55,785 nucleotides of DNA from a bacterium (GTDB taxonomy: Bacteria; Patescibacteriota; Andersenbacteria; UBA10190; CAIZMI01), in NCBI GenBank assembly GCA_030647555.1, contig JAUSJG010000030.1, positions 1-55,785 of the forward strand, written 5' to 3'. Shown piece after piece: positions 290 to 55,638 of the stretch (position 1 is its first letter; each line of letters starts with the position of its first letter). A program made the translations under genes and the position numbers. Under the pieces are notes generated by a model. That model was given only the letters and a program-made list of their open reading frames with translations, was not told the DNA's origin and ran no database searches.

Positions 290-311
290 CCCCCTATCCA
301 TGGGGGTTTTT
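290..311 (+). terminator. intrinsic terminator candidate
   Basis: CCCCCTATCCATGGGGG followed by TTTTT. Confidence 0.5.
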
Positions 312-315
312 GGTT

Positions 316-440
316 CAAATTTTCAATTTTCAATTTCTAATTTTCATTAAATTTTTAATTATTCAATTTTCAAACGGCGTCGTTGTTTAGAAATTGAAAA
401 TTGATAATTTAATAGAAATTATGCATTAGAAATTAGAAAT
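316..440. repeat. AT-rich long palindromic intergenic element, copy 1 (diverged)
   Basis: arms built of ttcaatttt / aaattgaaa words around central ACGGCGTCGT; same architecture as 1452-1580, 32058-32188, 33117-33277, 38619-38744. Confidence 0.55.
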
Positions 441-26274: not shown

Positions 26275-26410
26275 TACGAGCCCTCCTTTATCCTGTGTGT
26301 AAAGTGCGCCCCCTCTAATTAAATTGTAGAACTATTAAATTGCAAATACAAAAAACTGAAGCAGTTCAGTTTTTTGTGACAGCCGTCCGACTCCCGTTAA
26401 GCCAATGTTG

Positions 26411-26505
26411 CTCCGAAATCTTCGCGCGTCCGAGCGCGAAGATTTCGGAGTTCTTCGATTCTTGTGCAAAACAACCAAACAGGATGTTTGGTTGTTTTGT
26501 GTACA
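26411..26505 (+). repeat. multi-hairpin trailer element, copy 1
   Basis: CTCCGAAATCTTCGCGCGTCCGAGCGCGAAGATTTCGGAG + TTCTTCGATTCTTGTGC + AAAACAACCAAACAGGATGTTTGGTTGTTTT. Confidence 0.7.
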
Positions 26506-26529
26506 TTAGGATTGTTTTGCTTCGCAAAT

Positions 26530-27150
26530 TTAAACAATAGGTTGCCTGAGAATTGTTCGCAATTTCTTTGGTGCAGTTTTCCTCATATCACTCAAATAAA
26601 TTTCGTGATGTTTTTGAACTAATCCGTCAAAGGCATACCCATTTTCTTTTATGAAAGTATGAAGGTTGGCGATAGTTGGTCCTTCGTCTTTGTATGCACC
26701 AATATACAAAATTTGTGCACAAAGACTCTCATCTAGTGTCTCAAGATGGAGTTTGCTTAAAGCGGGTAATTCCTTTTTAGATTTTACTTCCTCAAAAGCC
26801 GTATCAAACATTTTTTTAGTTACAAAATTTGGTTGAACAATAAATATTTTCCATTTCCATAAATCTTTGTTTTTTATGGAAAAATCCCTCATATCATCCA
26901 TCCACCACAACCCCTCTAGTGGCATAACCGCGAAATCTTTATTTAATTTCTTACATGCAAATTTGATTTTATATACCATCGAGTAAAGTGCTTCTGTTGC
27001 ATTTTTAAATTCTACAGACGTGTTTGGATTCCCTTGACCGATCACAGAAATGATCGTTTGTTTGGATACGGTAACAAACGAAGGTTGCTTGGCCGAAGGA
27101 CAATAAAGTTGTTTTAGTTCTTTCTTGAGATCAAGTTTCATAATTTTCAC
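26530..27150 (-). CDS. GyrI-like small-molecule-binding domain protein
   Basis: LYCPSAKQPSFVTV, PLEGLWWMDD, W.WKIFIVQPNFVT, HHEIYLSDMRKTAPKKLRTILRQPI are typical of the GyrI-like/effector-binding family. Confidence 0.7.
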   Translation of the reverse strand: MKIMKLDLKKELKQLYCPSAKQPSFVTVSKQTIISVIGQGNPNTSVEFKNATEALYSMVYKIKFACKKLNKDFAVMPLEGLWWMDDMRDFSIKNKDLWKWKIFIVQPNFVTKKMFDTAFEEVKSKKELPALSKLHLETLDESLCAQILYIGAYKDEGPTIANLHTFIKENGYAFDGLVQKHHEIYLSDMRKTAPKKLRTILRQPIV

Positions 27151-27220
27151 TGTAATTTGATACTTTTTTGTAAGTTTATGATCATTTTATGTAAGTTTCT
27201 AATTACTTCTGTACACTTTG

Positions 27221-27291
27221 AGCGGGTAACGGGAGTCGGACCCGTTTCTCTATCTTGGCAAGATAGCATAATACCGTTATACGATACCCGC
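27221..27291 (-). tRNA. tRNA-Gly(GCC)
   Basis: manual fold: acceptor GCGGGTA/TACCCGC, anticodon arm CTATC-TTGCCAA-GATAG, T arm ACGGG-TCCGACT-CCCGT, discriminator T; D stem weak; no encoded CCA. Confidence 0.7.
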
Positions 27292-27325
27292 GTGGTTAAT
27301 AATGTAATGGATAACCTCGGATTTT

Positions 27326-28024
27326 TCAAGCTTCCTGGATGCCTTTTATCAGTCCCATTATTTTATAAAATAGTTCGGTAGAATTGATTCTTATTTGAGC
27401 TGTGCCGTAAGGTAAACAATTAAACTTTTTTGTTCTTTTGCTAGAGATACTCACTCCCCTATACACTTTGCCCAGGTTTTCTTTTGGTATTTTTGTAATT
27501 TCTTGCCAATATCTCATTATTTTATTTTCATCCATTCCATCGTAAAGATGAACAGAAAGTTTAATTTTTGTTTCATTCACGTTAAGACATTTTCTAAGAA
27601 ATAGCAGAAATATCTTAATTAATTCCGGATCAGAATTTGATAGTGAAACCGGGTGATAGGTGCGTTCTTTGTTTCGTACGATAATTTGTTTTTTGTATCC
27701 CTCTCCCCAATAAAGTGCGGTTCCAATTAGCAATAGTTCGCGGGTGGAAAGTTCTCCTACAGTAGCTTTTGATATTCTTAATGTTTCTTGTGAGCGTTCA
27801 AGCGCTAATTTTGTTTGATGTATATTTCTTCGGATTAATCCCTTTTTTGAGCCCTTGTATACCCTGGAATCGATTCTATTTTGTGCTTGAACGGAAAGCT
27901 CAATATTTTCAAGCCATGAATATAAAGTGCTTTTTGGAATATGGAGAATAGAAACAATTTCATTGTAACTTTTGCCACTTTTTCGTAATTCCCTTGCTTG
28001 CTCAATTTCGTTTAAGCTGTGCAT
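27326..28024 (-). CDS. HTH + single-motif LAGLIDADG-like endonuclease-family protein
   Basis: N-terminal HTH KSGKSYNEIVSILHIPKSTLYSWL; LLLIGTALYWGEGYK (LAGLIDADG-type helix with acidic residue); VSLSNSDPELIKIFLLFLRK; paralog of 53470-54174. Confidence 0.55.
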   Translation of the reverse strand: MHSLNEIEQARELRKSGKSYNEIVSILHIPKSTLYSWLENIELSVQAQNRIDSRVYKGSKKGLIRRNIHQTKLALERSQETLRISKATVGELSTRELLLIGTALYWGEGYKKQIIVRNKERTYHPVSLSNSDPELIKIFLLFLRKCLNVNETKIKLSVHLYDGMDENKIMRYWQEITKIPKENLGKVYRGVSISSKRTKKFNCLPYGTAQIRINSTELFYKIMGLIKGIQEA

Positions 28025-28110
28025 TATCAGTAGTATAGCACAGCAGTTCGTATTTTACAAAATACGCAAGATTCGCTACCCTACATATAACAATACTTGC
28101 TATTGTTAAT

Positions 28111-28426
28111 GCCGCGGTAGCTCAGCGGTAGAGCGCAGCCCTGGAAACTTCGGGGCCCGGTACAGCAATGAACCGTGAATAACTGGGTGAATTCGGGGAA
28201 ACTTTCTTTCGTCTTTGGAAAAACAAAGACCCATGCCAGCCCATGGACAGAAACAATCCCGAGCCGAGCCAAAAAGGGTAACAAGTTTTTTGGAAGGTGT
28301 AGAGACTAGCGGGTGAGTCCCAACGATAATCCCGCACTAGCGCCCAGCTCCGTGATATTACGGATGATGAGATAGTCCAAATAAAGGAAGAGGCTGGCGT
28401 CGACAGTTCGACTCTGTCCCGCGGCA
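28111..28426 (+). tRNA. tRNA-Phe(GAA) interrupted by a 244-nt group I intron
   Basis: exon 1 GCCGCGGTAGCTCAGCGGTAGAGCGCAGCCCT + exon 2 GAAGAGGCTGGCGTCGACAGTTCGACTCTGTCCCGCGGCA gives a canonical cloverleaf with loop CTGAAGA. Confidence 0.8.
28143..28386 (+). ncRNA. group I intron (ORF-less) in the anticodon loop, between U33 and G34
   Basis: 5' exon ends in U that can pair CCCU with the internal guide GGGG (28152-28155); intron ends in G; R/S-like core GTAGAGACTAGCGG (28299-28312) and GAGATAGTCC (28369-28378) forming a P7-like GACUA/UAGUC. Confidence 0.75.
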
Positions 28427-28553
28427 CTCGAGATTTGTTTCGCTTTGCGAAACAACCAAGGGTACACCAAATGACCAAACATCCTGTTTGGTCATTTGGC
28501 ACAAGAATCGAAGAACTCCGAGAATGAGCGCCAAGAGGCGTGAATTCTCGGAG
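28427..28553 (-). repeat. multi-hairpin trailer element, copy 2 (directly 3' of tRNA-Phe)
   Basis: CTCGAGATTTGTTTCGCTTTGCGAAAC identical to the tRNA-Leu trailer, then hairpins CCAAATGACCAAAC..GTTTGGTCATTTGG and CTCCGAGAAT..ATTCTCGGAG. Confidence 0.7.
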
Positions 28554-28565
28554 CCAATTTATACA

Positions 28566-28590
28566 AAAATCCGGCTTTCGCCGGATTTTT
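28566..28590. terminator. bidirectional intrinsic terminator
   Basis: AAAAATCCGGCTTTCGCCGGATTTTT between convergent tRNA-Phe and 28617-29303. Confidence 0.7.
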
Positions 28591-28616
28591 CGCTTATACT
28601 CCAACTTTCTAATAAA

Positions 28617-29303
28617 TTAGAAGCTTAGAATGTTTTGCGCCGTAACGGTAATCGTCTGGATGAAGTGACTAATATCGGTAAAGATGCTAGTTACTGGAAT
28701 GAAGACAGTACCTTCTGAATGGGTTTTGCCCGTCAGAGTTTGACTTTGTGCCGGGTCGATGCGTCGAATGACCGGTGCTGGAACCACTACGAAATTGTTT
28801 GATTGCGTGAGGGTGCCAGTGGCCGCGCTTTGGTTTTCTCCAACTTTGGAGAATTGCGCGATCGATGAGTTTTCGCTCAAGTTGGCCGTCGCATCATTTG
28901 TGTGTTGCGATTGGGCAACGCTACCGATCGTGTCGGACGCGACATTGCTGAAGCCTGTACCTGAAGAACAAGGGGCTGGGTTACCACAACCGGAAACGCT
29001 GTTCCAAGTTAGTGCTGAACCGACGTTACCACCCTGTGCTTGTGCAAACGAACCATTCGAGTGCGTCAATGATTGGCCGGCGGTCGCTGCGGATTGCGCG
29101 ACGGCGTTATTGCCGAGTTGAGTTGCGGTGCTAACATTGGCATTCTGTTGCGCCGTGTAGGACGCAGTGCCAGCTCTTTCACCGCTTTGTGCTTGGTCAA
29201 AGGAGACTAAAGCCCATGAGCCGTTTCCGGCCATTGCTGAAGATGCAACCAAGGACAACGCCGCAATTGGAGCAGTAACTAATAGATTTTTGATTTTGAA
29301 CAT
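28617..29303 (-). CDS. secreted Q/N/S/A/T-rich low-complexity protein
   Basis: signal peptide ...SSAMA; strong SD GGAGG; loose Q-x-G-x-x-N-x-A-like repeats (TQLGNNAVAQS, AQAQGGNVGSA). Confidence 0.6.
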   Translation of the reverse strand: MFKIKNLLVTAPIAALSLVASSAMAGNGSWALVSFDQAQSGERAGTASYTAQQNANVSTATQLGNNAVAQSAATAGQSLTHSNGSFAQAQGGNVGSALTWNSVSGCGNPAPCSSGTGFSNVASDTIGSVAQSQHTNDATANLSENSSIAQFSKVGENQSAATGTLTQSNNFVVVPAPVIRRIDPAQSQTLTGKTHSEGTVFIPVTSIFTDISHFIQTITVTAQNILSF

Positions 29304-29515
29304 ATATTTTACCTCCTTTCAAGAGAAGATTGGCTAAAACAGCCATTCTTATCTGTTTAAACTAATCTTATATTATTAAATATCTTGTGTGTAAGGACAC
29401 ACCCCTGGAAACTGACATAACGGAGCGGAAAACGCACAAAAATAACGAACAACCTCCGTTTGTGTTCTTAATATAGGACTTTATAGGAAAATTGCAATGG
29501 GAATGTCAAGCTTCG

Positions 29516-29590
29516 TGGTGGGCAGTGCAGGGATCGAACCTGCGGCCTCCTCGGTGTAAACGAGATGCTCTACCGCTGAGCTAACTGCCC
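29516..29590 (-). tRNA. tRNA-Val(TAC)
   Basis: GGGCAGT-TA-GCTCAGCGGTAGAGC-A-TCTCG-TTTACAC-CGAGG-AGGCC-GCAGGTTCGATCCCTGC-ACTGCCC-A-CCA. Confidence 0.9.
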
Positions 29591-29673
29591 GGACAAGGAT
29601 GTCTTTGTTTATCGAGATTACTTCATTTTGTTATTGTTTTCAAGGTGTCTAGCTCAGTTGGTCTAGTGTGGGG

Positions 29674-29801
29674 CTTCGAAACTTCGCGCATCCGAGCACG
29701 AAGATTTCGAAGTTCTTCGATTCTTGTGCAAAACAACCAAACGGGATGTTTGGTTGTTTTGTGTACATTGTATGGTTTCGCAAAGCGAAACAAATCTCGA
29801 G
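29674..29801 (+). repeat. multi-hairpin trailer element, copy 3 (directly 3' of tRNA-Leu in gene sense)
   Basis: CTTCGAAACTTCGCGC..GCACGAAGATTTCGAAG, AAAACAACCAAACGGGATGTTTGGTTGTTTT, GGTTTCGCAAAGCGAAAC, CTCGAG junction. Confidence 0.7.
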
Positions 29802-29885
29802 TGCGGCCGATGGGACTCGAACCCACACGAGCTAAGCTCACACGCCCCTCAAGCGTGCACGTGCTACCAATTTCGTCACGGCCGC
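29802..29885 (-). tRNA. tRNA-Leu(GAG)
   Basis: GCGGCCG acceptor, anticodon arm CACGC-TTGAGGG-GCGTG, long variable arm, T arm GTGGG-TTCGAGT-CCCAT; no encoded CCA. Confidence 0.85.
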
Positions 29886-29920
29886 AACATTAGGGATCAT
29901 ATCAGTGATTGGTGATGTTT

Positions 29921-30649
29921 TCAAGAGATCTTTATTGCATGATTTTTGTCGGAGAATGTGGGTATTATTCCATTTTTTGCGTTGCTTAATGCTGTCCACT
30001 GTCTATCCATTTTATCTTTCTTTCTCTTAAGAAATAGGTCGGTTTGGTTATCGTATAAAGCGTTAAATAGCGGTCTTGCTTTTGTTTTTGAATACTGAAG
30101 AACATATATGCTTCTCGCCTTTTTTATGCAGCCCACGATTTCAAGTAAAAATAGTACTTTCTTCTGGATCCATTCCAAGTGTGGCCTGCTTGCGGAACAA
30201 AAATTCATGTAGAGGGATACACTGCTACGCCATCGTGTATCCCAATATGCACATGATGATCCATCACCGTCGAATTCTCCACGCAGATGATCAAAAAAGA
30301 AGCGGTCTGGCACGTTTATTGCACCGATAGTCTTGCTTTTTCTGGGCGTTATTCCGATACTGATGAACCATCGGTATAATTCAACATCGCCAAATTGTAG
30401 TTGGCCATACATTTTTCGTGGTTCGCCGCCTCGTGATTTGTAACTTATTTTAACTTTTAATTTTAGGATCTTTTTGAATAGTAATAATTGTTCTGTATCT
30501 TTTGATGTCAGATTTAGATGACGGCCGTCTGATATAAGACAACCGTCGGTAGCCATAAGCCCACAAGCGTAAGCTAATTCTGATGTCCACGTAGTCGGAG
30601 TTGTGCATCGTGGTTTTGGTCCGGGTTTCTTTTTTATTTTTGTTTCCAC
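29921..30649 (-). CDS. double-motif LAGLIDADG homing-endonuclease-family protein
   Basis: LAYACGLMATDGCL and FDHLRGEFDGDGSS motifs with about 100-aa spacing. Confidence 0.75.
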   Translation of the reverse strand: METKIKKKPGPKPRCTTPTTWTSELAYACGLMATDGCLISDGRHLNLTSKDTEQLLLFKKILKLKVKISYKSRGGEPRKMYGQLQFGDVELYRWFISIGITPRKSKTIGAINVPDRFFFDHLRGEFDGDGSSCAYWDTRWRSSVSLYMNFCSASRPHLEWIQKKVLFLLEIVGCIKKARSIYVLQYSKTKARPLFNALYDNQTDLFLKRKKDKMDRQWTALSNAKNGIIPTFSDKNHAIKIS

Positions 30650-30690
30650 AATACAATAGTACGGTAAACGTACGGCATAGTCAAGTCAAG

Positions 30691-30715
30691 AAAAAACCCG
30701 CAATTGGTGCGGGTT
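30691..30715 (-). terminator. intrinsic terminator for 30746-31303
   Basis: AACCCGCAATTGGTGCGGGTT preceded on the plus strand by AAAAAA. Confidence 0.65.
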
Positions 30716-30745
30716 AGGACGAAACGCGGAGTGCGAGTCGTGAAC

Positions 30746-31303
30746 TTATTCTTGGCCGATGAACTTCTGCCATTCCGGCGACTGTCGGTTGACGGTGTTG
30801 AACCCCTGATCGGCCATGACGCGGAGGACGTCAAGCGGTTTTCCGCCTTGTCCCGCCGCTTGTAGCAGGCCGGCCATGAACAAATCCTCATCAAATTCTT
30901 GGCTCGTCACATCCGTCCCGTGGACAAATTGGGCGAAGAGAACGGACTCCACTTTTTCGCTAGGCCCAGGTATGTGAGCACGATAGTTTACTGTTTCGCC
31001 GTCCCACTCCATGCCGATTTGTCCCGCCCATTTCTTTTGGATTTGATGAAGCGCGTCTGTCAACGCACCTTGTGTCCCAAAACCGAACTCACTGGGATCG
31101 TGATCGTCGTAATCACAAAACGTTTGTCCGATACACAGTGTATCGTGAACGATTTTAGACAAGTGATAGCCGAAGAGTGGGTTTTCTCCGATTTCTGCCA
31201 ATTCCAGCATATCTCTTGTGGCTTGAGCAACTAGAGTGTCAGTAAAACTAGTGAGATGGTCAAGAAACGCACTAAGTGACGGAATCGACATCGAAAGAGG
31301 CAT
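30746..31303 (-). CDS. hypothetical acidic cytoplasmic protein
   Basis: 185-aa ORF, AAGGAG SD, GC-richer than its surroundings. Confidence 0.55.
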   Translation of the reverse strand: MPLSMSIPSLSAFLDHLTSFTDTLVAQATRDMLELAEIGENPLFGYHLSKIVHDTLCIGQTFCDYDDHDPSEFGFGTQGALTDALHQIQKKWAGQIGMEWDGETVNYRAHIPGPSEKVESVLFAQFVHGTDVTSQEFDEDLFMAGLLQAAGQGGKPLDVLRVMADQGFNTVNRQSPEWQKFIGQE

Positions 31304-32049: not shown

Positions 32050-32057
32050 GTAAAGTT

Positions 32058-32188
32058 ATTAATTATCAATTATCAATTCCCAATTTTCAATTAATTATCA
32101 ATGGTTTAATTATCAATTACGGCGTCGTATTTTGATAATTTAAAAATTGATCATTAATTGATAATTGGTCATTGAAAATTGATAATTT
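32058..32188. repeat. AT-rich long palindromic intergenic element, copy 3
   Basis: ttatcaattatcaattcccaattttcaattaattatcaatgg...ACGGCGTCGT...gatcattaattgataattggtcattgaaaattgataattt. Confidence 0.75.
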
Positions 32189-32212
32189 AGGGCTAATTAT
32201 TTTCTGAATAAG

Positions 32213-33052: not shown

Positions 33053-33116
33053 GAGGACACTATAAGACAGAAGCTGGAGTTTTCAAAACATACATAATCT
33101 GTAAAAGATTATGAAT

Positions 33117-33277
33117 AATTTTCAATTATCAATTCCCAATTTTTCCGCCATCGGGCGGACCCGCCGTCGTGGCGGGCAATAAATTATCAATGGCCTAATT
33201 ATCAATTACGACGTCGTCTTTTGATAATTTAAAATTTGATCATTAATTGATAATTGGTCATTGAAAATTGATAATTT
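33117..33277. repeat. AT-rich long palindromic intergenic element, copy 4, carrying a nested 33-nt GC insert
   Basis: collinear with copies 3 and 5 except for 33144-33176. Confidence 0.75.
33144..33176 (+). mobile_element. 33-nt GC-rich double-hairpin insertion element
   Basis: TCCGCCATCGGGCGGACCCGCCGTCGTGGCGGG sits between cccaatttt and caataaatt, which are contiguous in copies 3 and 5; second copy at 53220-53252. Confidence 0.7.
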
Positions 33278-33284
33278 GTAAGTA

Positions 33285-34493
33285 CTAGTATCGTTCCAAT
33301 GTGATGTTTACACTCTTCTGCTCAACAGCAACGGCCGTCGTCTGGTCCGGTGTTACAATGTCACTCACCTGTGGTTGGACGCTAAAAGTTCCATCGTTTT
33401 TACCCGAAGCACTGATGTAGATTTTCGCGTCATTATTCTGCAGGTTGGAAACATTTTTTCCTCTTAGAGAAACCTTCAGCGATGTCGGATTAACAGTGGA
33501 CGCGCGTAAACCATCGGGTAAATCTTTTATGGAAATCGGAGCGCTGATTTCTTTGGTGTCTTCCAACGGCGCGATATCAACGCGGGCCCTAATTGTTGTT
33601 TCACCGGAAGATAATTTTACTCCATTAGGTAGTGTCGGTTTTAAATCCCCATCGCGGGCGGAAATGGCACCGTCGATATTGATTGGTTCGGTGTCTACCA
33701 AAGTAAGTGGATCAACTAAATTACGATCGCCGGTAACTTCTATGGTCACTGGTGTTGTAGTGATACCGCGCACAAAATAACCGTTTTGTGGCGTGCCTTG
33801 GGTTTTTACGCGGATACCAAGGTTTTTGCTGATTTGTGTTTGTTCAACGGCAATTTTCACTCGAACACGATCAACGCCCGATTGAACGCCTGTCGGTAAA
33901 ACCAAATAGGCATCGCCTTCAAACGCTTCCTTGATTCCTGCCACATTGATTTTGGCATCAATACCGGCGGAAAGGGTCTGAAAAAGTCCTAACGCCGCGC
34001 GTACTTTCACCAATTGCGGGGTGGGTTGAATTATTCCAAGCTGGTACCCTTCCGCAGGACTGCCTTCGGGGATAACTCTCACGGGTACTTCCCGTTCAAC
34101 GGATGGATCAAGAGCAACCGTGATGGAGTTTGGTACAACGGAAATTATTGTTGCGTTGGGGATAGAAGTTGTTACCGAGACTGAAACGGTGCGTTCACCG
34201 ATGCCGCTGCCGCTAAGATCGATAAAGGCGCGAACCAGTTGGTTTTTGTCTTGTGATGTGACGGCATTATTCGTTAGTGGGGCGCGCAACTGAACGGTGA
34301 CTTTTGGAAGATTTTCACCCAGTCCAAGTCCGGTTGGAATATTGACGATGTCCGGAGTGATATTGTCGATCGTGACTGTGTGATTTCCCAAAAAACTAAG
34401 TGTAGCCCATAAACCGACGGCAACGGCTAAGGCAAGCAGTTTAATGTTTAAGTCTTTTGTGAAAAACGCGAGGAGATTTATTTTTCGTTCCAT
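33285..34493 (-). CDS. YbbR-domain protein (CdaR-like)
   Basis: one N-terminal TM then four repeated beta-rich modules of about 90 aa (V.V..P.G) typical of YbbR repeats; start at MERKINLL (ORF extends to 34538). Confidence 0.65.
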   Translation of the reverse strand: MERKINLLAFFTKDLNIKLLALAVAVGLWATLSFLGNHTVTIDNITPDIVNIPTGLGLGENLPKVTVQLRAPLTNNAVTSQDKNQLVRAFIDLSGSGIGERTVSVSVTTSIPNATIISVVPNSITVALDPSVEREVPVRVIPEGSPAEGYQLGIIQPTPQLVKVRAALGLFQTLSAGIDAKINVAGIKEAFEGDAYLVLPTGVQSGVDRVRVKIAVEQTQISKNLGIRVKTQGTPQNGYFVRGITTTPVTIEVTGDRNLVDPLTLVDTEPINIDGAISARDGDLKPTLPNGVKLSSGETTIRARVDIAPLEDTKEISAPISIKDLPDGLRASTVNPTSLKVSLRGKNVSNLQNNDAKIYISASGKNDGTFSVQPQVSDIVTPDQTTAVAVEQKSVNITLERY

Positions 34494-38584: not shown

Positions 38585-38613
38585 AGTGTAGTTTGGATGA
38601 AAGAAAATATCAA
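38585..38613 (-). promoter_or_regulatory. promoter candidate giving a leaderless or near-leaderless clpP mRNA
   Basis: gene sense TTGATA - 17 nt - TACACT - GAACTT - ATG; no SD. Confidence 0.4.
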
Positions 38614-38618
38614 CACTA

Positions 38619-38744
38619 ATTTTCAATTATCAATTCCCAATTTTCAATTAATTATCAATGACTCAATTATCAATTACAACGTCGTCACTTGATAATTTAA
38701 GAATTGATCATTAATTGATAATTGATCATTGAAAATTGATAATT
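38619..38744. repeat. AT-rich long palindromic intergenic element, copy 5
   Basis: ttttcaattatcaattcccaattttcaattaattatcaatgac...ACAACGTCGTC...gatcattaattgataattgatcattgaaaattgataatt. Confidence 0.75.
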
Positions 38745-38748
38745 ATCT

Positions 38749-40035
38749 TTATATTCCCGCTAGTTTTTCTAACAACTCAAATACTTTCTTGTTTCGTAAA
38801 GTACCAACAGTGATCTCCGTCAACGCCTCAATATCGACCTGTTTTTTGGCTTCTTCGGCGCTTGGAAAACGTTGCAGAAATTTAATCATTTCTTTTTGTA
38901 CTTCGTCATCGCTAACTTCAATATTTTCAATTTTTGCAATTGAACGTAAAGTTAAACCCGATTTAATGCGTTTCATGGCTTGTTCTTTCAAACCGTCACG
39001 CATTTGTTCTTGGGTTTTTTTGATTTGCAACAGATATTGTTCCATTGTTAAGCCTATTTGAGTGATTCCCTCTTCCATTTCGGAAACCATTTTATCCAGC
39101 TCATTTTCAACGAGAAGTTCCGGAATTTCTTCGAAGGTGGTTTTTTCTACCACTTGTTCCAGTAACGCTTGTTGTAACCGTTGTGTTTCCTTATATTCTT
39201 TTTCTAACAGTATGTTTTCTTTAATTTTGACTTTCAGTTCATCGATATTCGCAAATTTACCCATTCCTTGGGCGAAATTATCGTTTATTTCCGGTAAATT
39301 CTGTTGTTGCACCGTTAAAACTTTGATTTTGAAATCAACGGTTTTGTTCTGGAGGTCCTTTTGTGGGTGATCGGCGGGAAATTTGATCGGAAATTCTTTT
39401 GTTTCGCCTTCTTTGGCACCAATAATTTGGACCTCAAATTCCGGGAATAAGTGACTGTCGCCCAAAATTACGGATTGCTTGCGCGCATTGCCGTCTTCGA
39501 GCGGGACACCATCCGCGGAAACATTAATATCGATATCTACCCGATCGCCCTTTTCGGCGACTCTCTGAACAGTGACGTAGGAAGCGCGCATTTTGCGGAG
39601 TTCTTCAATTTCAGTGTCGACTTCTTTATCTTCAACCGTCATTTGTTTTTTTGTTTCCTTGACGGATTTATATTCGCCCAGTTTAATATCGGGCAACATC
39701 GAAACAGTGGCCTCGTAGACCCAATTCTTGCCAATTTCCACTTCTTTAGCTTCAATTTCCGGACGACCGATTGCTTCAATTTCTTTATCTTCCAAAAGCG
39801 CGTCCACATAAGTTTTCGGGACGAGTTTTTGGAGGGCGGTTTCAACCAAGTGATGATCACCAATGGCGGAACGCATCACATCAAACGGGACTTGGCCGGG
39901 ACGAAAACCTTTTACGGGGTGTTTTTTTGATTCTTCTTTAGCGGCCACATCCAAAAACGGCTGGACCTCGTCCGGTTCAATTTCAATAATTAACTTGATT
40001 TTTGACTTAGGGAGTTTCTCTTTTGTGACTTTCAT
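38749..40035 (-). CDS. tig: trigger factor
   Basis: N-terminal ribosome-binding region with GFRPGQVP signature, FKBP-like middle, helical C-terminus; start at MKVTKEKL (ORF extends to 40083). Confidence 0.85.
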   Translation of the reverse strand: MKVTKEKLPKSKIKLIIEIEPDEVQPFLDVAAKEESKKHPVKGFRPGQVPFDVMRSAIGDHHLVETALQKLVPKTYVDALLEDKEIEAIGRPEIEAKEVEIGKNWVYEATVSMLPDIKLGEYKSVKETKKQMTVEDKEVDTEIEELRKMRASYVTVQRVAEKGDRVDIDINVSADGVPLEDGNARKQSVILGDSHLFPEFEVQIIGAKEGETKEFPIKFPADHPQKDLQNKTVDFKIKVLTVQQQNLPEINDNFAQGMGKFANIDELKVKIKENILLEKEYKETQRLQQALLEQVVEKTTFEEIPELLVENELDKMVSEMEEGITQIGLTMEQYLLQIKKTQEQMRDGLKEQAMKRIKSGLTLRSIAKIENIEVSDDEVQKEMIKFLQRFPSAEEAKKQVDIEALTEITVGTLRNKKVFELLEKLAGI

Positions 40036-53019: not shown

Positions 53020-53090
53020 TCGGGGCGACAGGATTTGGCTTCATCGTCCTTTGCCCAGTACATTTATTGTGCTGGGCGAAACGATGCGCC
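53020..53090 (-). pseudogene. tRNA-Pro 3' fragment with a hairpin inserted in the anticodon loop
   Basis: matches the intact copy in TCGGGGCGACAGGATTTG and ..CATCGTCC / GAAACGATGCGCC, with a 28-nt hairpin TTTGCCCAGTACATTTATTGTGCTGGGC in between; lacks the 5' acceptor and D arm. Confidence 0.6.
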
Positions 53091-53213: not shown

Positions 53214-53306
53214 GATTTGCCCGCCACATCGGCGGGTCCGCCTGCTGGCGGAAACCTGCGGCCTCATCGTCCCGAACGATGCGCGCTACCACTGCGCTAC
53301 GCCCCG
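53214..53306 (-). pseudogene. tRNA-Pro(CGG) copy truncated after the T loop and carrying the 33-nt GC element
   Basis: 53253-53306 is 54/54 identical to 53123-53176; insert after GGTT; CAAATC follows, then homology ends (no 3' T stem or acceptor). Confidence 0.75.
53220..53252 (-). mobile_element. 33-nt GC-rich double-hairpin insertion element (second copy)
   Basis: gene-sense TCCGCCAGCAGGCGGACCCGCCGATGTGGCGGG; stems identical to 33144-33176, loops differ. Confidence 0.7.
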
Positions 53307-53318
53307 AAATTTTTTATG

Positions 53319-53390
53319 TGGACCTGGCGGGACTCGAACCCGCGGTCTTTAGTATGCCATACTAACGCTTTTCCTCTAAGCTACAGGCCC
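53319..53390 (-). tRNA. tRNA-Ala(GGC)
   Basis: GGGCCTG acceptor with G3:U70, anticodon arm TTAGT-ATGGCAT-ACTAA, T arm GCGGG-TTCGAGT-CCCGC. Confidence 0.85.
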
Positions 53391-53469
53391 CCAACTTCGC
53401 TCTGTCTTGCTAGCCAGAGCTTCGCTGGGCAGGCAATGGAGATATTTACCACTGCTTGTCCCGCGAAGC

Positions 53470-54174
53470 TCAATCAAGAGATTGAGCGGAGTGGGAAGCT
53501 ACAGGCCCTAATTTTTCTAATAGTACTTTGGGAAGTGTTTCTAACTCTAGTTGTTTATCGGTTCCGGCGCAACCGATGATACATACGCCGTGATAATCCT
53601 TTTTTAATGTCGGTTTACCAATTGTGCGAGGATCAGGTTTAGACTGGCAAAAGTTTTTAATTGGAATACCCAGTGTCTTAGACCAATATTTATGCAATTT
53701 ATGAAGATTCTGATCAGCCCTATAACTCATTGATGCGTGAAGAACATCACGACTGATACCGTAGCATTTTTCAAGTAGCAGTACATACAGTCCCATTAAT
53801 TCTGGAGAGGAACTTCCCAACTGAAGACCTCGGTGTCCTGCCCATTTATAACCCTCTCCAAGATATAGAAATGAAAGTGCGATTTTATATATTTGAGGAT
53901 CCGGGTCATGTAAAAAATCCTCACATGTTTGTTGAATTGCAGCCATTCTGTCTTCTTGTTTTTTCCTACTATAAGCCAACGAATTTACCCTGCCACGCGC
54001 CAGACTTTTTAACATATTTTCCTTGTAAGCTTTCATGTAAGCTGGAGGAAGTTTTACGTCTTTTAACCAATAAGAAAGTGTACCTTTTGGAATTTTTCGC
54101 CCAAGAGCTTCTTGAATATCACCAAAAGTTTTTCCTTGTGCTCTTAGTTTCTGCGCCATTTCTTTTTCTGTCAT
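53470..54174 (-). CDS. HTH + single-motif LAGLIDADG-like endonuclease-family protein (paralog of 27326-28024)
   Basis: AQGKTFGDIQEALGRKIPKGTLSYWL; ALSFLYLGEGYKW; LQLGSSSPELMGLYVLLLEK. Confidence 0.55.
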   Translation of the reverse strand: MTEKEMAQKLRAQGKTFGDIQEALGRKIPKGTLSYWLKDVKLPPAYMKAYKENMLKSLARGRVNSLAYSRKKQEDRMAAIQQTCEDFLHDPDPQIYKIALSFLYLGEGYKWAGHRGLQLGSSSPELMGLYVLLLEKCYGISRDVLHASMSYRADQNLHKLHKYWSKTLGIPIKNFCQSKPDPRTIGKPTLKKDYHGVCIIGCAGTDKQLELETLPKVLLEKLGPVASHSAQSLD

Positions 54175-54278
54175 GTTGTAATTATACTCCGCGCCTATTC
54201 CATGTGCAATATCGTTTATGAGAAAAATCCATATTGCAGAAATTCAAATAATAAGTAAAAATAGGCGTACAGACGTAG

Positions 54279-54520
54279 GGGCCGTTAGCTCAGCCAGTAG
54301 GATTGTCGGCAATGAGTTGCCGAATCGGGGCAATCCTTCGGTGGGATGAGCCGGCTCCGCCGGAACATTATTTCACCGTAGAGCGCTACATTCGCATTGT
54401 AGAGGTCGGCGGTTCGCCGGAGCACCATGTGGGGAGCGGCGGGTTCCCCGAGAACATTCTGTGAATGTTCGAGAGGGTGCCAGCTCGCGTCCAGTACCCT
54501 ACGTGGTACTGGACGAATCC
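54279..54520 (+). pseudogene. tRNA-Ala(CGC) copy with structured inserts in the D loop and T loop, 3' end missing
   Basis: GGGCCGTTAGCTCAGC[about 83 nt]GTAGAGCGCTACATTCGCATTGTAGAGGTCGGCGGTTCG[about 105 nt]AATCC, then no acceptor 3' strand. Confidence 0.65.
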
Positions 54521-54565
54521 AAATTGCTATTTTCAAAAGCATGTTTGTATCATGATCAAATATTA

Positions 54566-54665
54566 GGGCTCGTAGCTCAGCTGGCAGAGCGCGGCATTCG
54601 CATTGCCGAGGTCAAGGGTTCGCTCGCTATCGCAGCGAGCGCCCGCTGAAATAGCGGGCGAATCC
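54566..54665 (+). pseudogene. second tRNA-Ala(CGC)-like copy with a 38-nt double hairpin in the T loop, 3' end missing
   Basis: GGGCTCGTAGCTCAGCTGGCAGAGCGCGGCATTCGCATTGCCGAGGTCAAGGGTTCG[CTCGCTATCGCAGCGAGCGCCCGCTGAAATAGCGGGCG]AATCC. Confidence 0.65.
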
Positions 54666-54697: not shown

Positions 54698-54773
54698 GGG
54701 CCGTTAGCTCAGCTGGCAGAGCGCTACATTCGCATTGTAGAGGTCGGCGGTTCGAATCCGCCACGGTCCACCA
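54698..54773 (+). tRNA. tRNA-Ala(CGC)
   Basis: GGGCCGT acceptor with G3:U70, CTACA-TTCGCAT-TGTAG, GGCGG-TTCGAAT-CCGCC, ACGGTCC-A-CCA. Confidence 0.9.
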
Positions 54774-55234: not shown

Positions 55235-55638
55235 ATGTCCTGGTATCTCTATATCGCGCAAGCGCAAAAGACGGGGAATTATTATGTTGGAATTTCCACG
55301 GATGTGAAAAAGCGGATTATTGCGCACAATAAGGGTAAGGCCTCGTCCGTAAATAAATTCCCCAAGATTATACTCACTGCATCTTTAACTGCAAGCACTT
55401 CTCAATCGTAAAACCTTTCACCGTACTGCTAGTACGCCTCAAGGTTTTACTCAATCAAAGTACTTACATTTAAAGCGCATTGAGTATAATCTTGGGGAAT
55501 TTATTTACGGACGAGGCCTAAGGGAGCGTAATGGCGCGGACGCAGGAGCCGTTCGTTTTGGTTTACAAATCAAAAAACTGCCGACGTAGTTGGTGGTTTC
55601 GATCGAATACCATGATGCCGATATCCTATGGCGACTGA
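55235..55638 (+). pseudogene. GIY-YIG (UPF0213-like) nuclease gene disrupted by a MITE and a frame change
   Basis: MSWYLYIAQAQKTGNYYVGISTDVKKRIIAHNKGK up to 55338; after the insert GA-stop, while ..EPFVLVY.. continues in another frame. Confidence 0.5.
55339..55518. mobile_element. 180-nt MITE with perfect 38-bp terminal inverted repeats and TAA flanks
   Basis: GGCCTCGTCCGTAAATAAATTCCCCAAGATTATACTCA at 55339-55376, exact reverse complement at 55481-55518; TAA on both sides (55336-55338, 55519-55521). Confidence 0.8.

What the first reader, a model, noticed from the sequence alone, without database searches (positions are those of the whole stretch)
27221..30649. Every LAGLIDADG-type gene sits immediately 5' of, and co-oriented with, a tRNA gene (3 of 3)
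On the minus strand, 28024->27326 is followed after 34 nt by tRNA-Gly. 30649->29921 is followed after 35 nt by tRNA-Leu. 54174->53470 is followed after 79 nt by tRNA-Ala(GGC), then by the Pro copies. None of the three is inside an intron. The only intron here (tRNA-Phe) is ORF-less, yet it lies 87 nt from the 5' end of 27326-28024, divergently oriented. Two of the proteins add an N-terminal HTH and have a single LAGLIDADG-like helix with Glu (LYWGEGYK / LYLGEGYK). The recurrence suggests co-transcription with tRNAs. One reading is free-standing homing endonucleases that target tRNA genes, which would explain the decayed tRNA copies nearby. Another is maturase-like or tRNA-associated factors.
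Basis: partly seen in the sequence, partly recalled or inferred. Interest (0 to 1): 0.7.

Follow-up and report, generated by a model that had tools for sequence, protein, structure and literature searches.

The report
Selfish endonuclease-type genes docked beside tRNA genes
Three small genes in this Patescibacteria window each sit directly in front of one particular tRNA gene, and in about 250 related loci they appear as optional insertions at those same tRNA genes, which is how homing-endonuclease-type selfish DNA behaves; one gene family also travels with an ORF-less intron in tRNA-Phe.

Summary
The geometry is exact. ORF A (27326-28024), ORF B (29921-30649) and ORF C (53470-54174), all on the minus strand, end 34, 35 and 79 nt before tRNA-Gly(gcc), tRNA-Leu(gag) and tRNA-Ala(ggc).

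It generalises strongly:
- ORF B relatives: 75 of 75 evaluable sit directly 5' of tRNA-Leu.
- ORF C relatives: 8 of 8 abut tRNA-Ala(ggc).
- ORF A relatives: 82 of 88 touch a tRNA. [quoted passage not shown]

Only ORF B is a demonstrable LAGLIDADG protein. A and C are paralogs with an HTH plus a C-terminal domain that no profile or fold search assigns.

All three are presence/absence insertions in a conserved compact array, rplS - tRNA-Leu - Val - Phe - Gly. In one closely related pair the adjacent tRNA was exchanged with ORF B. ORF B leaders carry a copy of the tRNA-Leu 5' half.

Best reading (0.6): free-standing homing-endonuclease-type selfish genes, each dedicated to one tRNA gene, with family A cooperating with the tRNA-Phe intron ("collaborative homing"). 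Cleavage is untested. I found no report of tRNA-flanking endonuclease genes in Patescibacteria.

The parts
29921..30649 (-). ORF B, 242 aa (GTG start): free-standing two-motif LAGLIDADG endonuclease-type gene
   Evidence: Motifs GLMATDGCL and LRGEFDGDGS. Pfam LAGLIDADG_3 E 0.0024, below the cut-off, for this protein, but PF14528 is on most homologs. PDB sequence hits to I-CreI derivatives and 2dch. PHROG 'endonuclease' E 1e-22. D129 is invariant and D35 is conserved in at least 90%.
29801..29885 (-). tRNA-Leu(gag), the invariant downstream partner of the ORF B family
   Evidence: 75 of 75 evaluable ORF B homologs have tRNA-Leu directly downstream, median gap 1 nt.
29896..29924 (-). Promoter-like site TTGAAA-17-TATGAT (with TG) overlapping the ORF B stop codon and ending 10 nt before tRNA-Leu
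   Evidence: This is a consensus match only.
30656..30684 (-). Promoter-like site TTGACT-17-TACTAT in front of ORF B; a terminator-like hairpin of the upstream gene lies at 30695-30715
27326..28024 (-). ORF A, 232 aa: N-terminal HTH, long helix, then an unassigned alpha/beta C-terminal domain with invariant L104 Y105 E108 G109 K111 W173 G207
   Evidence: The family has 9746 clusters at E<=1e-3.
27220..27291 (-). tRNA-Gly(gcc), 34 nt downstream of ORF A
27301..27329 (-). Promoter-like site TTGAAA-17-TACATT overlapping the ORF A stop codon and ending 9 nt before tRNA-Gly
28032..28060 (-). Promoter-like site TTGTAA-17-TATACT (with TG) in front of ORF A
28111..28426 (+). tRNA-Phe(GAA) interrupted after U33 by a 244-nt ORF-less group I intron (28143-28386); this is the conserved partner of the ORF A family
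   Evidence: Rfam Intron_gpI scores 43.1 bits, E 7e-9, below the gathering score here. It scores 51-96 bits, above it, in 10 of 10 related loci tested. The joined exons give a canonical tRNA-Phe(gaa). 63 of 88 A genes lie next to such a gene.
29516..29590 (-). tRNA-Val(tac), a member of the conserved Leu-Val-Phe-Gly array
53470..54174 (-). ORF C, 234 aa: paralog of ORF A (24% identity, E 4e-16)
53318..53390 (-). tRNA-Ala(ggc), partner of the ORF C subfamily
   Evidence: 8 of 8 independent ORF C homolog contexts abut tRNA-Ala(ggc).
53496..53508 (-). 13-nt copy of the tRNA-Ala 5' end (GGGCCTGTAGCTT) inside the 3' end of ORF C. It marks the ancestral ORF/tRNA junction, now separated from the real tRNA by about 105 nt (53391-53495) that includes an inverted repeat
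   Evidence: Read directly from the sequence. In most homologs (5 of 8) the called ORF runs 10 nt into tRNA-Ala and ends at its U8-A9-G10 TAG.

Best explanation
ORF A, B and C are free-standing, homing-endonuclease-type selfish genes. Each lineage is dedicated to one tRNA gene.

The proposed cycle has four steps:
1. The protein recognises the DNA of a specific tRNA gene. tRNA genes are among the most conserved DNA in any genome.
2. It breaks alleles that lack the element.
3. Recombinational repair copies the gene, together with the neighbouring tRNA, into the broken site.
4. The gene therefore ends up, and stays, within a few nucleotides of that tRNA, without inactivating it.

ORF B is a two-domain LAGLIDADG enzyme tied to tRNA-Leu(GAG). 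Its cassette is bounded on the left by a truncated tRNA-Leu copy that ends in the anticodon loop, and on the right by an intact tRNA-Leu.

ORF A and C belong to a large uncharacterised family (HTH plus a C-terminal domain) that probably acts as a dimer. [quoted passage not shown] That is the architecture of 'collaborative homing': the intron would shield the resident gene from the nuclease, and the nuclease would mobilise the intron. The C subfamily is tied to tRNA-Ala(GGC).

Shown here: the adjacency, the tRNA specificity, the optional presence, the exchange of the flanking tRNA in one close pair, the remnants, the intron co-occurrence, and the LAGLIDADG identity of ORF B.

Inferred: DNA cleavage, the target sites, the immunity mechanism, and any nuclease activity of A and C.
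For: 1. Specificity.
- ORF B family: all 75 evaluable genes of 82 lie directly 5' of tRNA-Leu (73 gag, 2 cag), median gap 1 nt.
- ORF C subfamily: 8 of 8 abut tRNA-Ala(ggc).
- ORF A family: 82 of 88 have a tRNA within 150 nt, and 75 are next to tRNA-Phe(gaa).
- Other ORFs in the same loci: 9% (Fisher p about 1e-47 for A and 1e-43 for B).

2. Optional insertions in a conserved backbone. The backbone is rplS - tRNA-Leu(gag) - Val - Phe - Gly, with 3-15 nt spacers in empty genomes. Among loci chosen for ORF A, 15 have rplS directly followed by tRNA-Leu and 1 has ORF B between them. L038 has two A copies, one before Phe and one before Gly.

3. Exchange of flanks. L025 (empty) and L116 (occupied) are 100% identical over 93 nt of rplS and 91% identical 3' of the tRNA. 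They differ in the rplS tail, ORF B and the whole tRNA-Leu. L038 and L103 are 90% identical across Leu-Val and find no match beyond the end of tRNA-Val.

4. Remnant. 49 of 79 ORF B leaders carry GGTATACGC-N5-10-TTGAG, which copies tRNA-Leu from the D arm to the anticodon loop. The motif occurs 48 times inside tRNA-Leu genes and only about 13 times elsewhere in 1.6 Mb. In L147, where the partner is tRNA-Leu(cag), the remnant reads CTCAG.

5. ORF B keeps both catalytic acidic positions. Its pairwise identities track those of rplS only weakly (Spearman 0.22).

6. Intron link. tRNA-Phe next to an A gene has the intron in 63 cases and lacks it in 12. tRNA-Phe not next to an A gene has it in 1 case and lacks it in 8 (Fisher p 2e-5). 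The introns score above the Rfam gathering score in 10 of 10 loci tested.

7. The A tree forms clades by tRNA partner and layout.

8. Natural tandem fusions of two complete A modules (424-576 aa) exist, as expected for a protein that works as a dimer.

9. Precedents. SegB sits in the T4 tRNA cluster and recognises a tRNA T-loop motif (PMC2330249). F-CphI sits next to an intron-containing psbA (PMC6083498, PMC3984707).
Against: - No cleavage data exist for any of the three proteins.
- The C-terminal domain of A and C matches no nuclease or LAGLIDADG profile. Fold search gives only weak OmpA/YfiB-like hits (E 3e-3, TM 0.41, rmsd about 8 A) and I-DmoI at rank 49 (E 0.27, TM 0.44, rmsd 4.1 A).
- The intact tRNA next to ORF B should still contain any target that lies wholly inside the tRNA. 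How the resident allele would be immune is unexplained.
- ORF B is as conserved as ribosomal protein L19 (mean identity 0.54 against 0.53), and few pseudogenised copies were seen. That would also fit a host function.
- Twelve A genes flank an intron-less tRNA-Phe, and L168 has the intron without an adjacent A gene. The intron link is strong but not obligate.
- The comparison sets were selected on the genes themselves, so occupancy frequencies are rough.
- The flank-exchange evidence rests on one close pair plus one weaker pair. A wider search for close pairs for family A was uninformative.
Confidence: 0.6

Rival explanations
1. The genes are host-serving, tRNA-linked factors. ORF A would be a splicing cofactor (maturase-like) for the tRNA-Phe group I intron. 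A, B and C could also be DNA-binding regulators of the adjacent tRNA promoters, comparable to WhiA, a LAGLIDADG-derived transcription factor. They would be kept next to their client genes by selection.
For: - A genes co-occur strongly with intron-containing tRNA-Phe.
- A and C have an HTH domain.
- Palindromic, operator-like sequences span the -10 region of many A promoters.
- ORF B is highly conserved and few copies are pseudogenised.
- Promoter-like hexamers for the tRNAs lie inside the ORF 3' ends.
Against: - The distribution is sporadic: 15 empty against 1 occupied tRNA-Leu site, and several intron-less Phe-Gly arrays have no A gene.
- Twelve A genes sit next to intron-less tRNA-Phe. The whole C subfamily, and A copies before Ile, Val and Met tRNAs, have no intron nearby.
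- ORF B keeps both catalytic acidic residues.
- The tRNA was exchanged with the gene in the close pair.
- Some genomes carry several copies.
Confidence: 0.15
2. ORF A and C are transposase- or integrase-like genes of very small insertion elements. These would insert next to tRNA genes by transposition or site-specific recombination, not by break-and-repair homing.
For: - The N-terminal HTH resembles those of Tc1/IS630, IS3 and resolvase proteins (HTH_23, HTH_28, HTH_SB, HTH_7).
- Some genomes carry several copies, at different tRNAs.
- Family A appears in either orientation and on either side of tRNA-Phe.
Against: - No DDE, serine- or tyrosine-recombinase domain was found by Pfam, NCBIfam, PHROGs or PDB profile search.
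- No terminal inverted repeats flank the three window genes in the repeat scan.
- No consistent target duplication was seen for A or C.
- The insertion is only the gene plus about 60-100 nt of promoter.
Confidence: 0.12
3. The arrangement is ordinary, ancient synteny. The genes were present next to these tRNAs in the Patescibacteria ancestor and have simply been lost many times. No mobility is involved.
For: - The tRNA array itself is strongly conserved.
- ORF B identity is fairly uniform, about 0.5-0.7.
Against: - ORF B distances correlate only weakly with rplS distances (Spearman 0.22), and in 185 of 1378 pairs ORF B is more than 10 points more similar than L19.
- L025 and L116 have near-identical flanks but a replaced tRNA plus ORF B.
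- The same layout exists at tRNA-Leu(cag), with a remnant bearing the matching anticodon.
- A family members sit at several different tRNAs, and related tandem-fused forms occur in proteins whose composition suggests high-GC organisms.
Confidence: 0.08

Closest known systems
Phage T4 SegB, a free-standing GIY-YIG homing endonuclease inside the T4 tRNA gene cluster (PMC2330249)
   Same: It is a free-standing endonuclease gene embedded among tRNA genes. Its recognition site includes a conserved tRNA motif. [quoted passage not shown]
   Different: SegB is a phage gene, not a cellular chromosomal one. It belongs to the GIY-YIG family, not to LAGLIDADG or the HTH family. It shows no one-gene-one-tRNA-species pairing with a gap of a few nucleotides, no tRNA 5'-half remnant, and no intron partner.
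Collaborative homing: F-CphI next to the intron-containing psbA of cyanophage S-PM2, and T4 mobE with the nrdB intron (PMC6083498, PMC3984707, PMC2790892)
   Same: [quoted passage not shown] In that system the intron blocks self-cleavage and the nuclease mobilises the intron. The ORF A / tRNA-Phe(intron) layout has the same architecture (63 of 88 genes).
   Different: The known cases are in phage protein-coding genes. Here the host gene is a tRNA in a bacterial chromosome, and the partner protein has no recognised nuclease domain. Cleavage at the intron insertion site is not shown. Some A genes lack the intron partner.
LAGLIDADG homing endonucleases of group I introns in Patescibacteria (CPR) rRNA genes, for example I-ShaI (PMC11270868)
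   Same: They occur in the same phylum and the same enzyme superfamily as ORF B. They show site-specific, sporadic distribution and inferred homing.
   Different: Those are intron-encoded, mostly single-domain, and lie in 16S or 23S rRNA genes. That paper does not mention tRNA at all. ORF B is free-standing, has two motifs, and lies outside the tRNA it accompanies.
I-Ssp6803I, the endonuclease encoded in the cyanobacterial tRNA-fMet group I intron and specific for the anticodon region (listed as reference 105 in PMC3984707; its PD-(D/E)XK fold is from my own knowledge)
   Same: It is a homing endonuclease whose target is the anticodon region of a tRNA gene carrying a group I intron.
   Different: It is encoded inside the intron, and it shows no sequence similarity to A, B or C.
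WhiA, a LAGLIDADG-derived transcription factor with an HTH domain (from my own knowledge)
   Same: It combines an HTH with a LAGLIDADG-type scaffold, which shows that such proteins can be domesticated as regulators.
   Different: WhiA has two degenerate LAGLIDADG domains followed by a C-terminal HTH, is broadly conserved, and is not linked to tRNA genes. A and C have an N-terminal HTH and one unassigned domain that keeps an invariant Glu.

Membership tests
LAGLIDADG homing endonuclease (ORF B) | One or two LAGLIDADG helices, each ending in a conserved acidic residue | tested here: met
   The motifs are GLMATDGCL and LRGEFDGDGS. D129 is invariant and D35 is conserved in at least 90% of 30 homologs.
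LAGLIDADG homing endonuclease (ORF B) | Significant match to LAGLIDADG profiles or to solved structures | tested here: met
   ORF B itself scores 18.5 bits against the Pfam LAGLIDADG_3 cut-off of 22.5. Most homologs carry PF14528. PDB hits are an I-CreI derivative (E 1.7e-4) and 2dch (E 3e-3), covering both halves. The PHROG 'endonuclease' match is E 1e-22.
LAGLIDADG homing endonuclease (ORF B) | Optional presence at one fixed genomic site | tested here: met
   75 of 75 evaluable genes lie directly 5' of tRNA-Leu. Among unselected rplS-tRNA-Leu junctions, 15 are empty and 1 is occupied.
LAGLIDADG homing endonuclease (ORF B) | Site-specific double-strand cleavage of the empty allele | not testable with these tools
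   This needs purified protein and cloned rplS-tRNA-Leu(GAG) junctions.
LAGLIDADG family (ORF A and ORF C) | Match to LAGLIDADG sequence profiles | tested here: not met
   None of 32 members hits any Pfam LAGLIDADG model. PDB profile searches find only HTH hits.
LAGLIDADG family (ORF A and ORF C) | The alpha-beta-beta-alpha-beta-beta-alpha fold | tested here: inconclusive
   The AF2 models (pLDDT 88-89) show a helix ending in G-E-G, a beta hairpin, S-x-D before the next helix, and then beta-alpha-beta-beta-alpha. Foldseek's best E-values go to OmpA/YfiB-like folds (3e-3, TM 0.41). I-DmoI ranks 49th with TM 0.44, rmsd 4.1 A and E 0.27.
LAGLIDADG family (ORF A and ORF C) | Acidic residue at the C-terminal end of the interface helix; the protein works as a dimer or a fused pseudo-dimer | tested here: inconclusive
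   E108 is invariant at the end of helix 94-108. Natural tandem fusions of two modules exist. Both observations are compatible with membership but not specific to it.
Collaborative homing pair (free-standing endonuclease plus ORF-less group I intron) | [quoted passage not shown] | tested here: met
   63 of 88 A genes lie within 150 nt of an intron-containing tRNA-Phe(gaa). The introns score 51-96 bits with Rfam Intron_gpI in 10 of 10 loci tested. The window intron is 244 nt and has no ORF.
Collaborative homing pair (free-standing endonuclease plus ORF-less group I intron) | Intron presence is associated with presence of the gene | tested here: met
   Next to an A gene, 63 tRNA-Phe have the intron and 12 lack it. 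Away from an A gene, 1 has it and 8 lack it. Fisher p 2e-5. The samples were selected on A or B, so this is indicative only.
Collaborative homing pair (free-standing endonuclease plus ORF-less group I intron) | The protein cleaves the intron-less allele at the intron insertion site, and the intron protects the resident allele | not testable with these tools
   This needs cleavage assays on intron-less and intron-containing tRNA-Phe genes.
Intron maturase | The protein is intron-encoded or found strictly with intron-containing genes | tested here: not met
   All three genes are free-standing. Twelve A genes flank intron-less tRNA-Phe. 8 of 8 C homologs flank intron-less tRNA-Ala.
Insertion sequence or transposase | A recognisable transposase or recombinase catalytic domain, and terminal inverted repeats | tested here: not met
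   Only the HTH is recognised. No inverted repeats flank the three genes in the window. Element ends were not searched systematically in the other loci.
tRNA-targeting integrative element (integrase type) | A tyrosine or serine recombinase, and duplication of the tRNA 3' end | tested here: not met
   No recombinase domain is present. The duplicated piece at ORF B is the 5' half of the tRNA.

The most novel reading that the evidence does not exclude
The ORF A/C family (HTH plus the 'LYWGEGYK ... NSD' domain; about 10,000 clusters at 50% identity) is a new family of homing endonucleases. Its fold would be either new or a LAGLIDADG derivative diverged beyond recognition.

It would act as a dimer on the naturally palindromic anticodon-arm DNA of specific tRNA genes. 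[quoted passage not shown] That would be the first case of collaborative homing in a cellular chromosome and in a tRNA gene.

Together with the LAGLIDADG gene locked to tRNA-Leu(GAG), this would make tRNA genes a major homing niche in these reduced genomes.
Probability: 0.35. Interest if true: 0.85.

Novelty: new variant of a known kind. Interest (0 to 1): 0.7.

Why it matters
If correct, tRNA genes join rRNA genes as a main habitat of homing-type selfish DNA in Patescibacteria.

- It would explain oddities in these genomes: kilobase gaps in otherwise compact tRNA arrays, tRNA fragments, and exchanged tRNA alleles.
- It would give a large protein family with no annotation beyond an HTH a testable function and a predicted DNA target, namely a specific tRNA gene.
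- It would extend 'collaborative homing' of a nuclease and an ORF-less intron from two phage cases to bacterial chromosomes.
- Enzymes that recognise defined tRNA-gene sequences could also be useful site-specific nucleases.
- For annotation, about 70% of the tRNA-Phe genes next to family A are missed by standard tRNA finders because of the intron.

Tried and rejected
- **LAGLIDADG membership of ORF A and C.** Tested with Pfam on 32 members, PDB profile searches (full length and C-terminal domain), hhalign against the ORF B family and I-CreI, and Foldseek against PDB (full length and domain only) and BFVD. None is significant. The domain stays unassigned.
- **NCBIfam, PHROGs and PADLOC for A and C.** Only HTH-level hits.
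- **A tRNA remnant upstream of A or C, like the one upstream of B.** Nothing consistent was found.
- **Close empty/occupied pairs for family A, to see exchange of Phe and Gly.** Only L038/L103 was usable. A systematic comparison of tRNA identities over 98 pairs was uninformative because no pair was close enough.
- **tRNA-Gly as the conserved partner of ORF A.** Rejected. The downstream tRNA varies (Gly, Pro, Met, Val), while tRNA-Phe is the constant neighbour.
- **The 300-500 nt gap upstream of many A genes as an unknown element.** It is the intron-containing tRNA-Phe, which ARAGORN misses in default mode.
- **ORF B as a remnant of an intron ORF.** Rejected for the present layout. There is no room for a ribozyme: the leader is 10-40 nt and the gap to the tRNA is about 1 nt.
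- **Overall promoter-like site count in 26300-30800.** It is not above the shuffled expectation (10 against 8.9). Only the placement of the sites is suggestive.
- **Literature.** Searches found CPR rRNA-intron endonucleases but nothing on tRNA-flanking ones.

Full report
**1. What is in the window**

The homologs of all three proteins come from Patescibacteria (CPR) metagenome-assembled genomes.

ARAGORN finds six tRNAs. A seventh, tRNA-Phe(GAA), is split by a group I intron:
- exon 1: 28111-28142
- intron: 28143-28386 (244 nt, no ORF)
- exon 2: 28387-28426

The joined exons fold as a canonical tRNA-Phe. Rfam Intron_gpI scores 43.1 bits (E 7e-9), just under the gathering score.

The three ORFs of the finding end 34, 35 and 79 nt before co-oriented tRNA-Gly(gcc), tRNA-Leu(gag) and tRNA-Ala(ggc). 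HMMs built from the two protein families find no further member in the window. The geometric observation is therefore exact.

**2. What the proteins are**

ORF B (242 aa, GTG start at 30649) is a two-motif LAGLIDADG protein.
- The motifs are GLMATDGCL and LRGEFDGDGS, and both acidic positions are conserved across 30 homologs.
- PF14528 is on most homologs.
- PDB sequence hits to I-CreI derivatives and 2dch cover both halves.
- A PHROG 'endonuclease' family matches at E 1e-22.

ORF A and ORF C are paralogs of each other (24% identity, E 4e-16), but they are not detectably related to ORF B.
- Across 32 members, Pfam sees only N-terminal HTH families.
- PDB profile searches see only HTH.
- hhalign gives 0.6-1.5% probability against the ORF B family and I-CreI.
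- AF2 models are confident (pLDDT 89 and 88). They show an HTH, a 44-residue helix, and an alpha/beta domain whose first helix ends in the invariant G-E-G.
- Foldseek gives no significant match. OmpA/YfiB-like folds reach E 3e-3 with TM 0.41 and rmsd about 8 A. I-DmoI appears only at rank 49, though with the best geometry in the list (TM 0.44, rmsd 4.1 A, E 0.27).

Two local features resemble LAGLIDADG_3 proteins:
- a helix that ends in G-E-G;
- an S-x-D motif just before the second helix. The non-significant hhalign alignment places this motif opposite the invariant S49-x-D51 of ORF B.

Natural tandem fusions of two whole modules also exist. I therefore leave the domain unassigned.

The family is very large: 9746 clusters at E<=1e-3 and 1645 at E<=1e-30.

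**3. Does the tRNA adjacency generalise?**

Yes, far beyond chance.

| Family | Sample | Result |
|---|---|---|
| B | 82 genes in 80 metagenome loci, L001 and the window | 75 have a co-oriented tRNA-Leu directly downstream (73 gag, 2 cag), median gap 1 nt. The other 7 sit at contig ends, so 75 of 75 evaluable |
| C | 8 independent contexts, 40-81% identity | All 8 abut tRNA-Ala(ggc). In most, the called ORF runs 10 nt into the tRNA and ends at the tRNA's own U8-A9-G10 TAG |
| A | 88 genes | 82 have a tRNA within 150 nt. 72 have a co-oriented tRNA downstream once intron-containing tRNAs are counted |
| Control | 669 other ORFs in the same tRNA-rich loci | 9% have such a neighbour |

In the window, a 13-nt copy of the tRNA-Ala 5' end survives inside the 3' end of ORF C (53496-53508). 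About 105 nt (53391-53495), which include an inverted repeat, now separate it from the real tRNA.

**4. The real partner of family A**

Many A loci seemed to have a 300-500 nt 'gap', or no tRNA at all.

An nhmmer search with the window's intron-containing tRNA-Phe hit 63 of the 80 A-selected loci. It also hit L116 and L123, both of which contain an A gene. ARAGORN in intron mode calls these genes tRNA-Phe(gaa) with 200-300 nt (up to about 440 nt) introns at position 33/34. Rfam scores the introns at 51-96 bits in 10 of 10 loci tested.

Of the 88 A genes, 75 are adjacent to tRNA-Phe(gaa), and 63 of those carry the intron. The main layouts are:
- A followed by Phe(intron): 26 genes, gap -10 to 42 nt.
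- Phe(intron) followed by A, usually with Gly, Pro or Met next: 27 genes, with 51-130 nt to the A start.
- Phe(intron) upstream and divergent from A, as in the window: 10 genes, 71-136 nt.
- A followed by intron-less Phe: 10 genes.

The downstream tRNA varies, while tRNA-Phe is constant. So tRNA-Gly in the window is a bystander of the conserved Phe-Gly array.

tRNA-Phe genes that are not next to an A gene are intron-less in 8 of 9 cases. L168 is the exception. Fisher p is 2e-5.

A rough neighbour-joining tree of A groups the genes by partner and layout.

**5. Optional insertions in a conserved backbone**

Gene maps of 160 loci show a shared backbone: FtsH - tRNA-Ile(tat) - Val - ... - rplS(L19) - tRNA-Leu(gag) - Val(tac) - Phe(gaa) - Gly(gcc). 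In 'empty' genomes the spacers are 3-15 nt.
- ORF B, when present, lies between rplS and tRNA-Leu. Among loci selected for A, 15 junctions are empty and 1 is occupied.
- A lies beside tRNA-Phe, and some copies lie before Ile(tat), Val(gac) or Met.
- L038 has two A copies, one on each side of an intron-less tRNA-Phe.

One empty/occupied pair is close enough to read. L025 and L116 are 100% identical over 93 nt of rplS and 91% identical downstream of the tRNA. The rplS tail, ORF B and the entire tRNA-Leu differ. So ORF B was exchanged together with its tRNA.

L038 and L103 are 90% identical across Leu-Val and find no match beyond the end of tRNA-Val, where the A-Phe-A-Gly block begins.

ORF B pairwise identities correlate only weakly with those of the adjacent rplS (Spearman 0.22), and ORF B is on average as conserved as L19.

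**6. A tRNA remnant in the ORF B leader**

49 of 79 ORF B genes carry, in the 150 nt before the start (mostly 0-40 nt before it), the motif GGTATACGC-N5-10-TTGAG. This copies tRNA-Leu(gag) from the D arm to the anticodon loop. A few loci keep the acceptor strand as well.

The motif occurs 48 times inside annotated tRNA-Leu genes. Outside them it occurs 62 times in 1.6 Mb, 49 of which are these leaders, which leaves about 13 other occurrences.

In L147, where ORF B precedes tRNA-Leu(cag), the remnant reads CTCAG instead of TTGAG (a single case).

The cassette is therefore [truncated tRNA-Leu ending in the anticodon loop] - ORF B - [intact tRNA-Leu]. The TTGAG(G/A) often lies 17 nt before a -10-like hexamer, so the remnant may now serve as the -35 element for ORF B. 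That is my inference. I see no such remnant upstream of ORF B in the window itself, where the rplS neighbour is also missing.

**7. Transcription**

Promoter-like hexamers lie in four places on the minus strand:
- at the 3' end of ORF B: TTGAAA-17-TATGAT with TG, ending 10 nt before tRNA-Leu;
- at the 3' end of ORF A: TTGAAA-17-TACATT, ending 9 nt before tRNA-Gly;
- in front of ORF A;
- in front of ORF B.

No terminator-like site lies between ORF and tRNA. The total count is not above the shuffled expectation, so these are leads only. Co-transcription is possible but not required.

**8. Mechanism**

The data fit free-standing homing-endonuclease-type genes, each dedicated to one tRNA gene:
- a fixed site;
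- optional presence;
- exchange of flanking markers;
- intact catalytic residues in ORF B;
- paralogous lineages at different tRNAs;
- several copies per genome.

For family A the layout matches 'collaborative homing'. In that known system a free-standing nuclease gene sits next to a gene whose ORF-less group I intron interrupts the nuclease's target, as for F-CphI and psbA (PMC6083498, PMC3984707). A tRNA-cluster precedent is T4 SegB, whose site includes the tRNA T-loop motif and which carries neighbouring tRNA genes along (PMC2330249).

It is my inference that the anticodon arm, a natural 17-bp near-palindrome specific to each tRNA species, is the target. The supports are the intron at position 33/34, the ORF B remnant that ends at the anticodon loop, and the dimer-type architecture of A.

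Not shown: any cleavage, the target sites, how the intact tRNA beside ORF B or the intron-less tRNA-Phe beside 12 A genes escapes cutting, and whether the A/C domain is a nuclease at all.

**9. Rivals**

- A host function (maturase or regulator) is weakened by the sporadic distribution and by members next to intron-less tRNAs.
- A transposase or integrase mechanism lacks a catalytic domain and element ends.
- Pure vertical synteny is contradicted by the L025/L116 pair, by the weak congruence with rplS, and by the tRNA-Leu(cag) case.

**10. Novelty**

LAGLIDADG endonucleases in CPR rRNA introns are described (PMC11270868, PMC11809585). That work does not mention tRNA genes. Full-text searches found no report of tRNA-flanking endonuclease-type genes, or of tRNA-Phe introns with an adjacent partner gene, in this phylum.

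I rate this a new variant of a known kind: free-standing homing genes and collaborative homing, here with a new host class, a new target class and a probably new protein family. Confidence in the overall selfish-element reading is about 0.6. It is higher for ORF B (about 0.75) than for A and C (about 0.5-0.55).

Noticed in passing
window 28427-28555 (+), 29675-29800 (-), 26405-26530 (-): A two-hairpin repeat element of about 125 nt, starting TCGAGATTTGTTTCGCTTTGCGAAAC, occurs in three copies. Two begin at the first base after tRNA-Phe and tRNA-Leu(gag), and one follows the GyrI-like ORF. The close relative L001 has only 30 nt between tRNA-Leu and tRNA-Val, so the copy there is a recent insertion. 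It could be a small mobile element or a terminator module.
   Followed up: partly
window 53253-53307 (-), about 53020-53050 (-), 33142-33179: The first 54 nt of tRNA-Pro(cgg) are duplicated (100% identical) between tRNA-Ala and tRNA-Pro. The copy is cut off in the T loop by a GC-rich hairpin element that also occurs, inverted, at 33142-33179. A tRNA-Pro 3' fragment lies downstream of the real gene.
   Followed up: no
window 54275-54530 (+) and 54565-54660 (+): Two decayed tRNA-Ala(cgc) copies lie upstream of the intact gene (54698-54773). One has an insert of about 80 nt in the D loop and one of about 100 nt in the T loop. The other has a 38-nt double-hairpin insert right after GGTTCG of the T loop. 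Something in this genome inserts into tRNA T loops.
   Followed up: no
window 29645-29685 (+): A piece resembling a tRNA 5' half (GGTGTCTAGCTCAGTTGGTCTAGTGTGGGGCTTCGAA) abuts the repeat element between tRNA-Leu and tRNA-Val.
   Followed up: no
window 55235-55411 (+), 55338-55380 / 55477-55519: A truncated GIY-YIG ORF of 58 aa (Pfam E 1e-7) runs into a 43-nt, 98% complementary inverted repeat. The relative L161 has an 89-aa GIY-YIG gene at the same place after the NUDIX gene.
   Followed up: no
window 300-420, 1440-1580, 32050-32200, 33100-33290, 38600-38760: AT-rich intergenic repeats built from ATTGAAAATTGATAATT-type units occur in five places, in both orientations.
   Followed up: no
loci L006, L010, L022, L025, L116, L154, L068: 40-110 nt upstream of ORF A homologs: DnaA-box-like motifs (TTATCCACA, TTATCAACA, ATATCCACA) recur, often in pairs, just upstream of ORF A homologs. 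They could be binding sites for the HTH protein, or a replication origin near the tRNA array.
   Followed up: no
loci L054, L056, L059, L060, L062, L064, L070-L072: the 50 nt before the ORF A homolog start: A palindrome, TTGAACC-N(about 25)-GGTTCAA, spans the -10 hexamer of the promoter of the ORF A homolog. It looks like an autoregulatory operator.
   Followed up: no
proteins P0209, P0214, P0218, P0226: Members of the ORF A family of 424-576 aa consist of two complete HTH-plus-domain modules in tandem. Their amino-acid composition suggests high-GC organisms, so the family probably extends beyond Patescibacteria. Their genomic context was not examined.
   Followed up: partly
locus L168 4580-5591: rplS - tRNA-Phe(intron) - tRNA-Gly(gcc) with no adjacent ORF A gene. 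This is the one case seen of the intron without its usual neighbour. It fits loss of the gene after invasion by the intron.
   Followed up: partly
locus L120: The ORF B homolog is split into two adjacent ORFs, probably by a frameshift, and a second, inverted partial copy lies at the end of the locus. This is one of the few apparently decaying copies.
   Followed up: no
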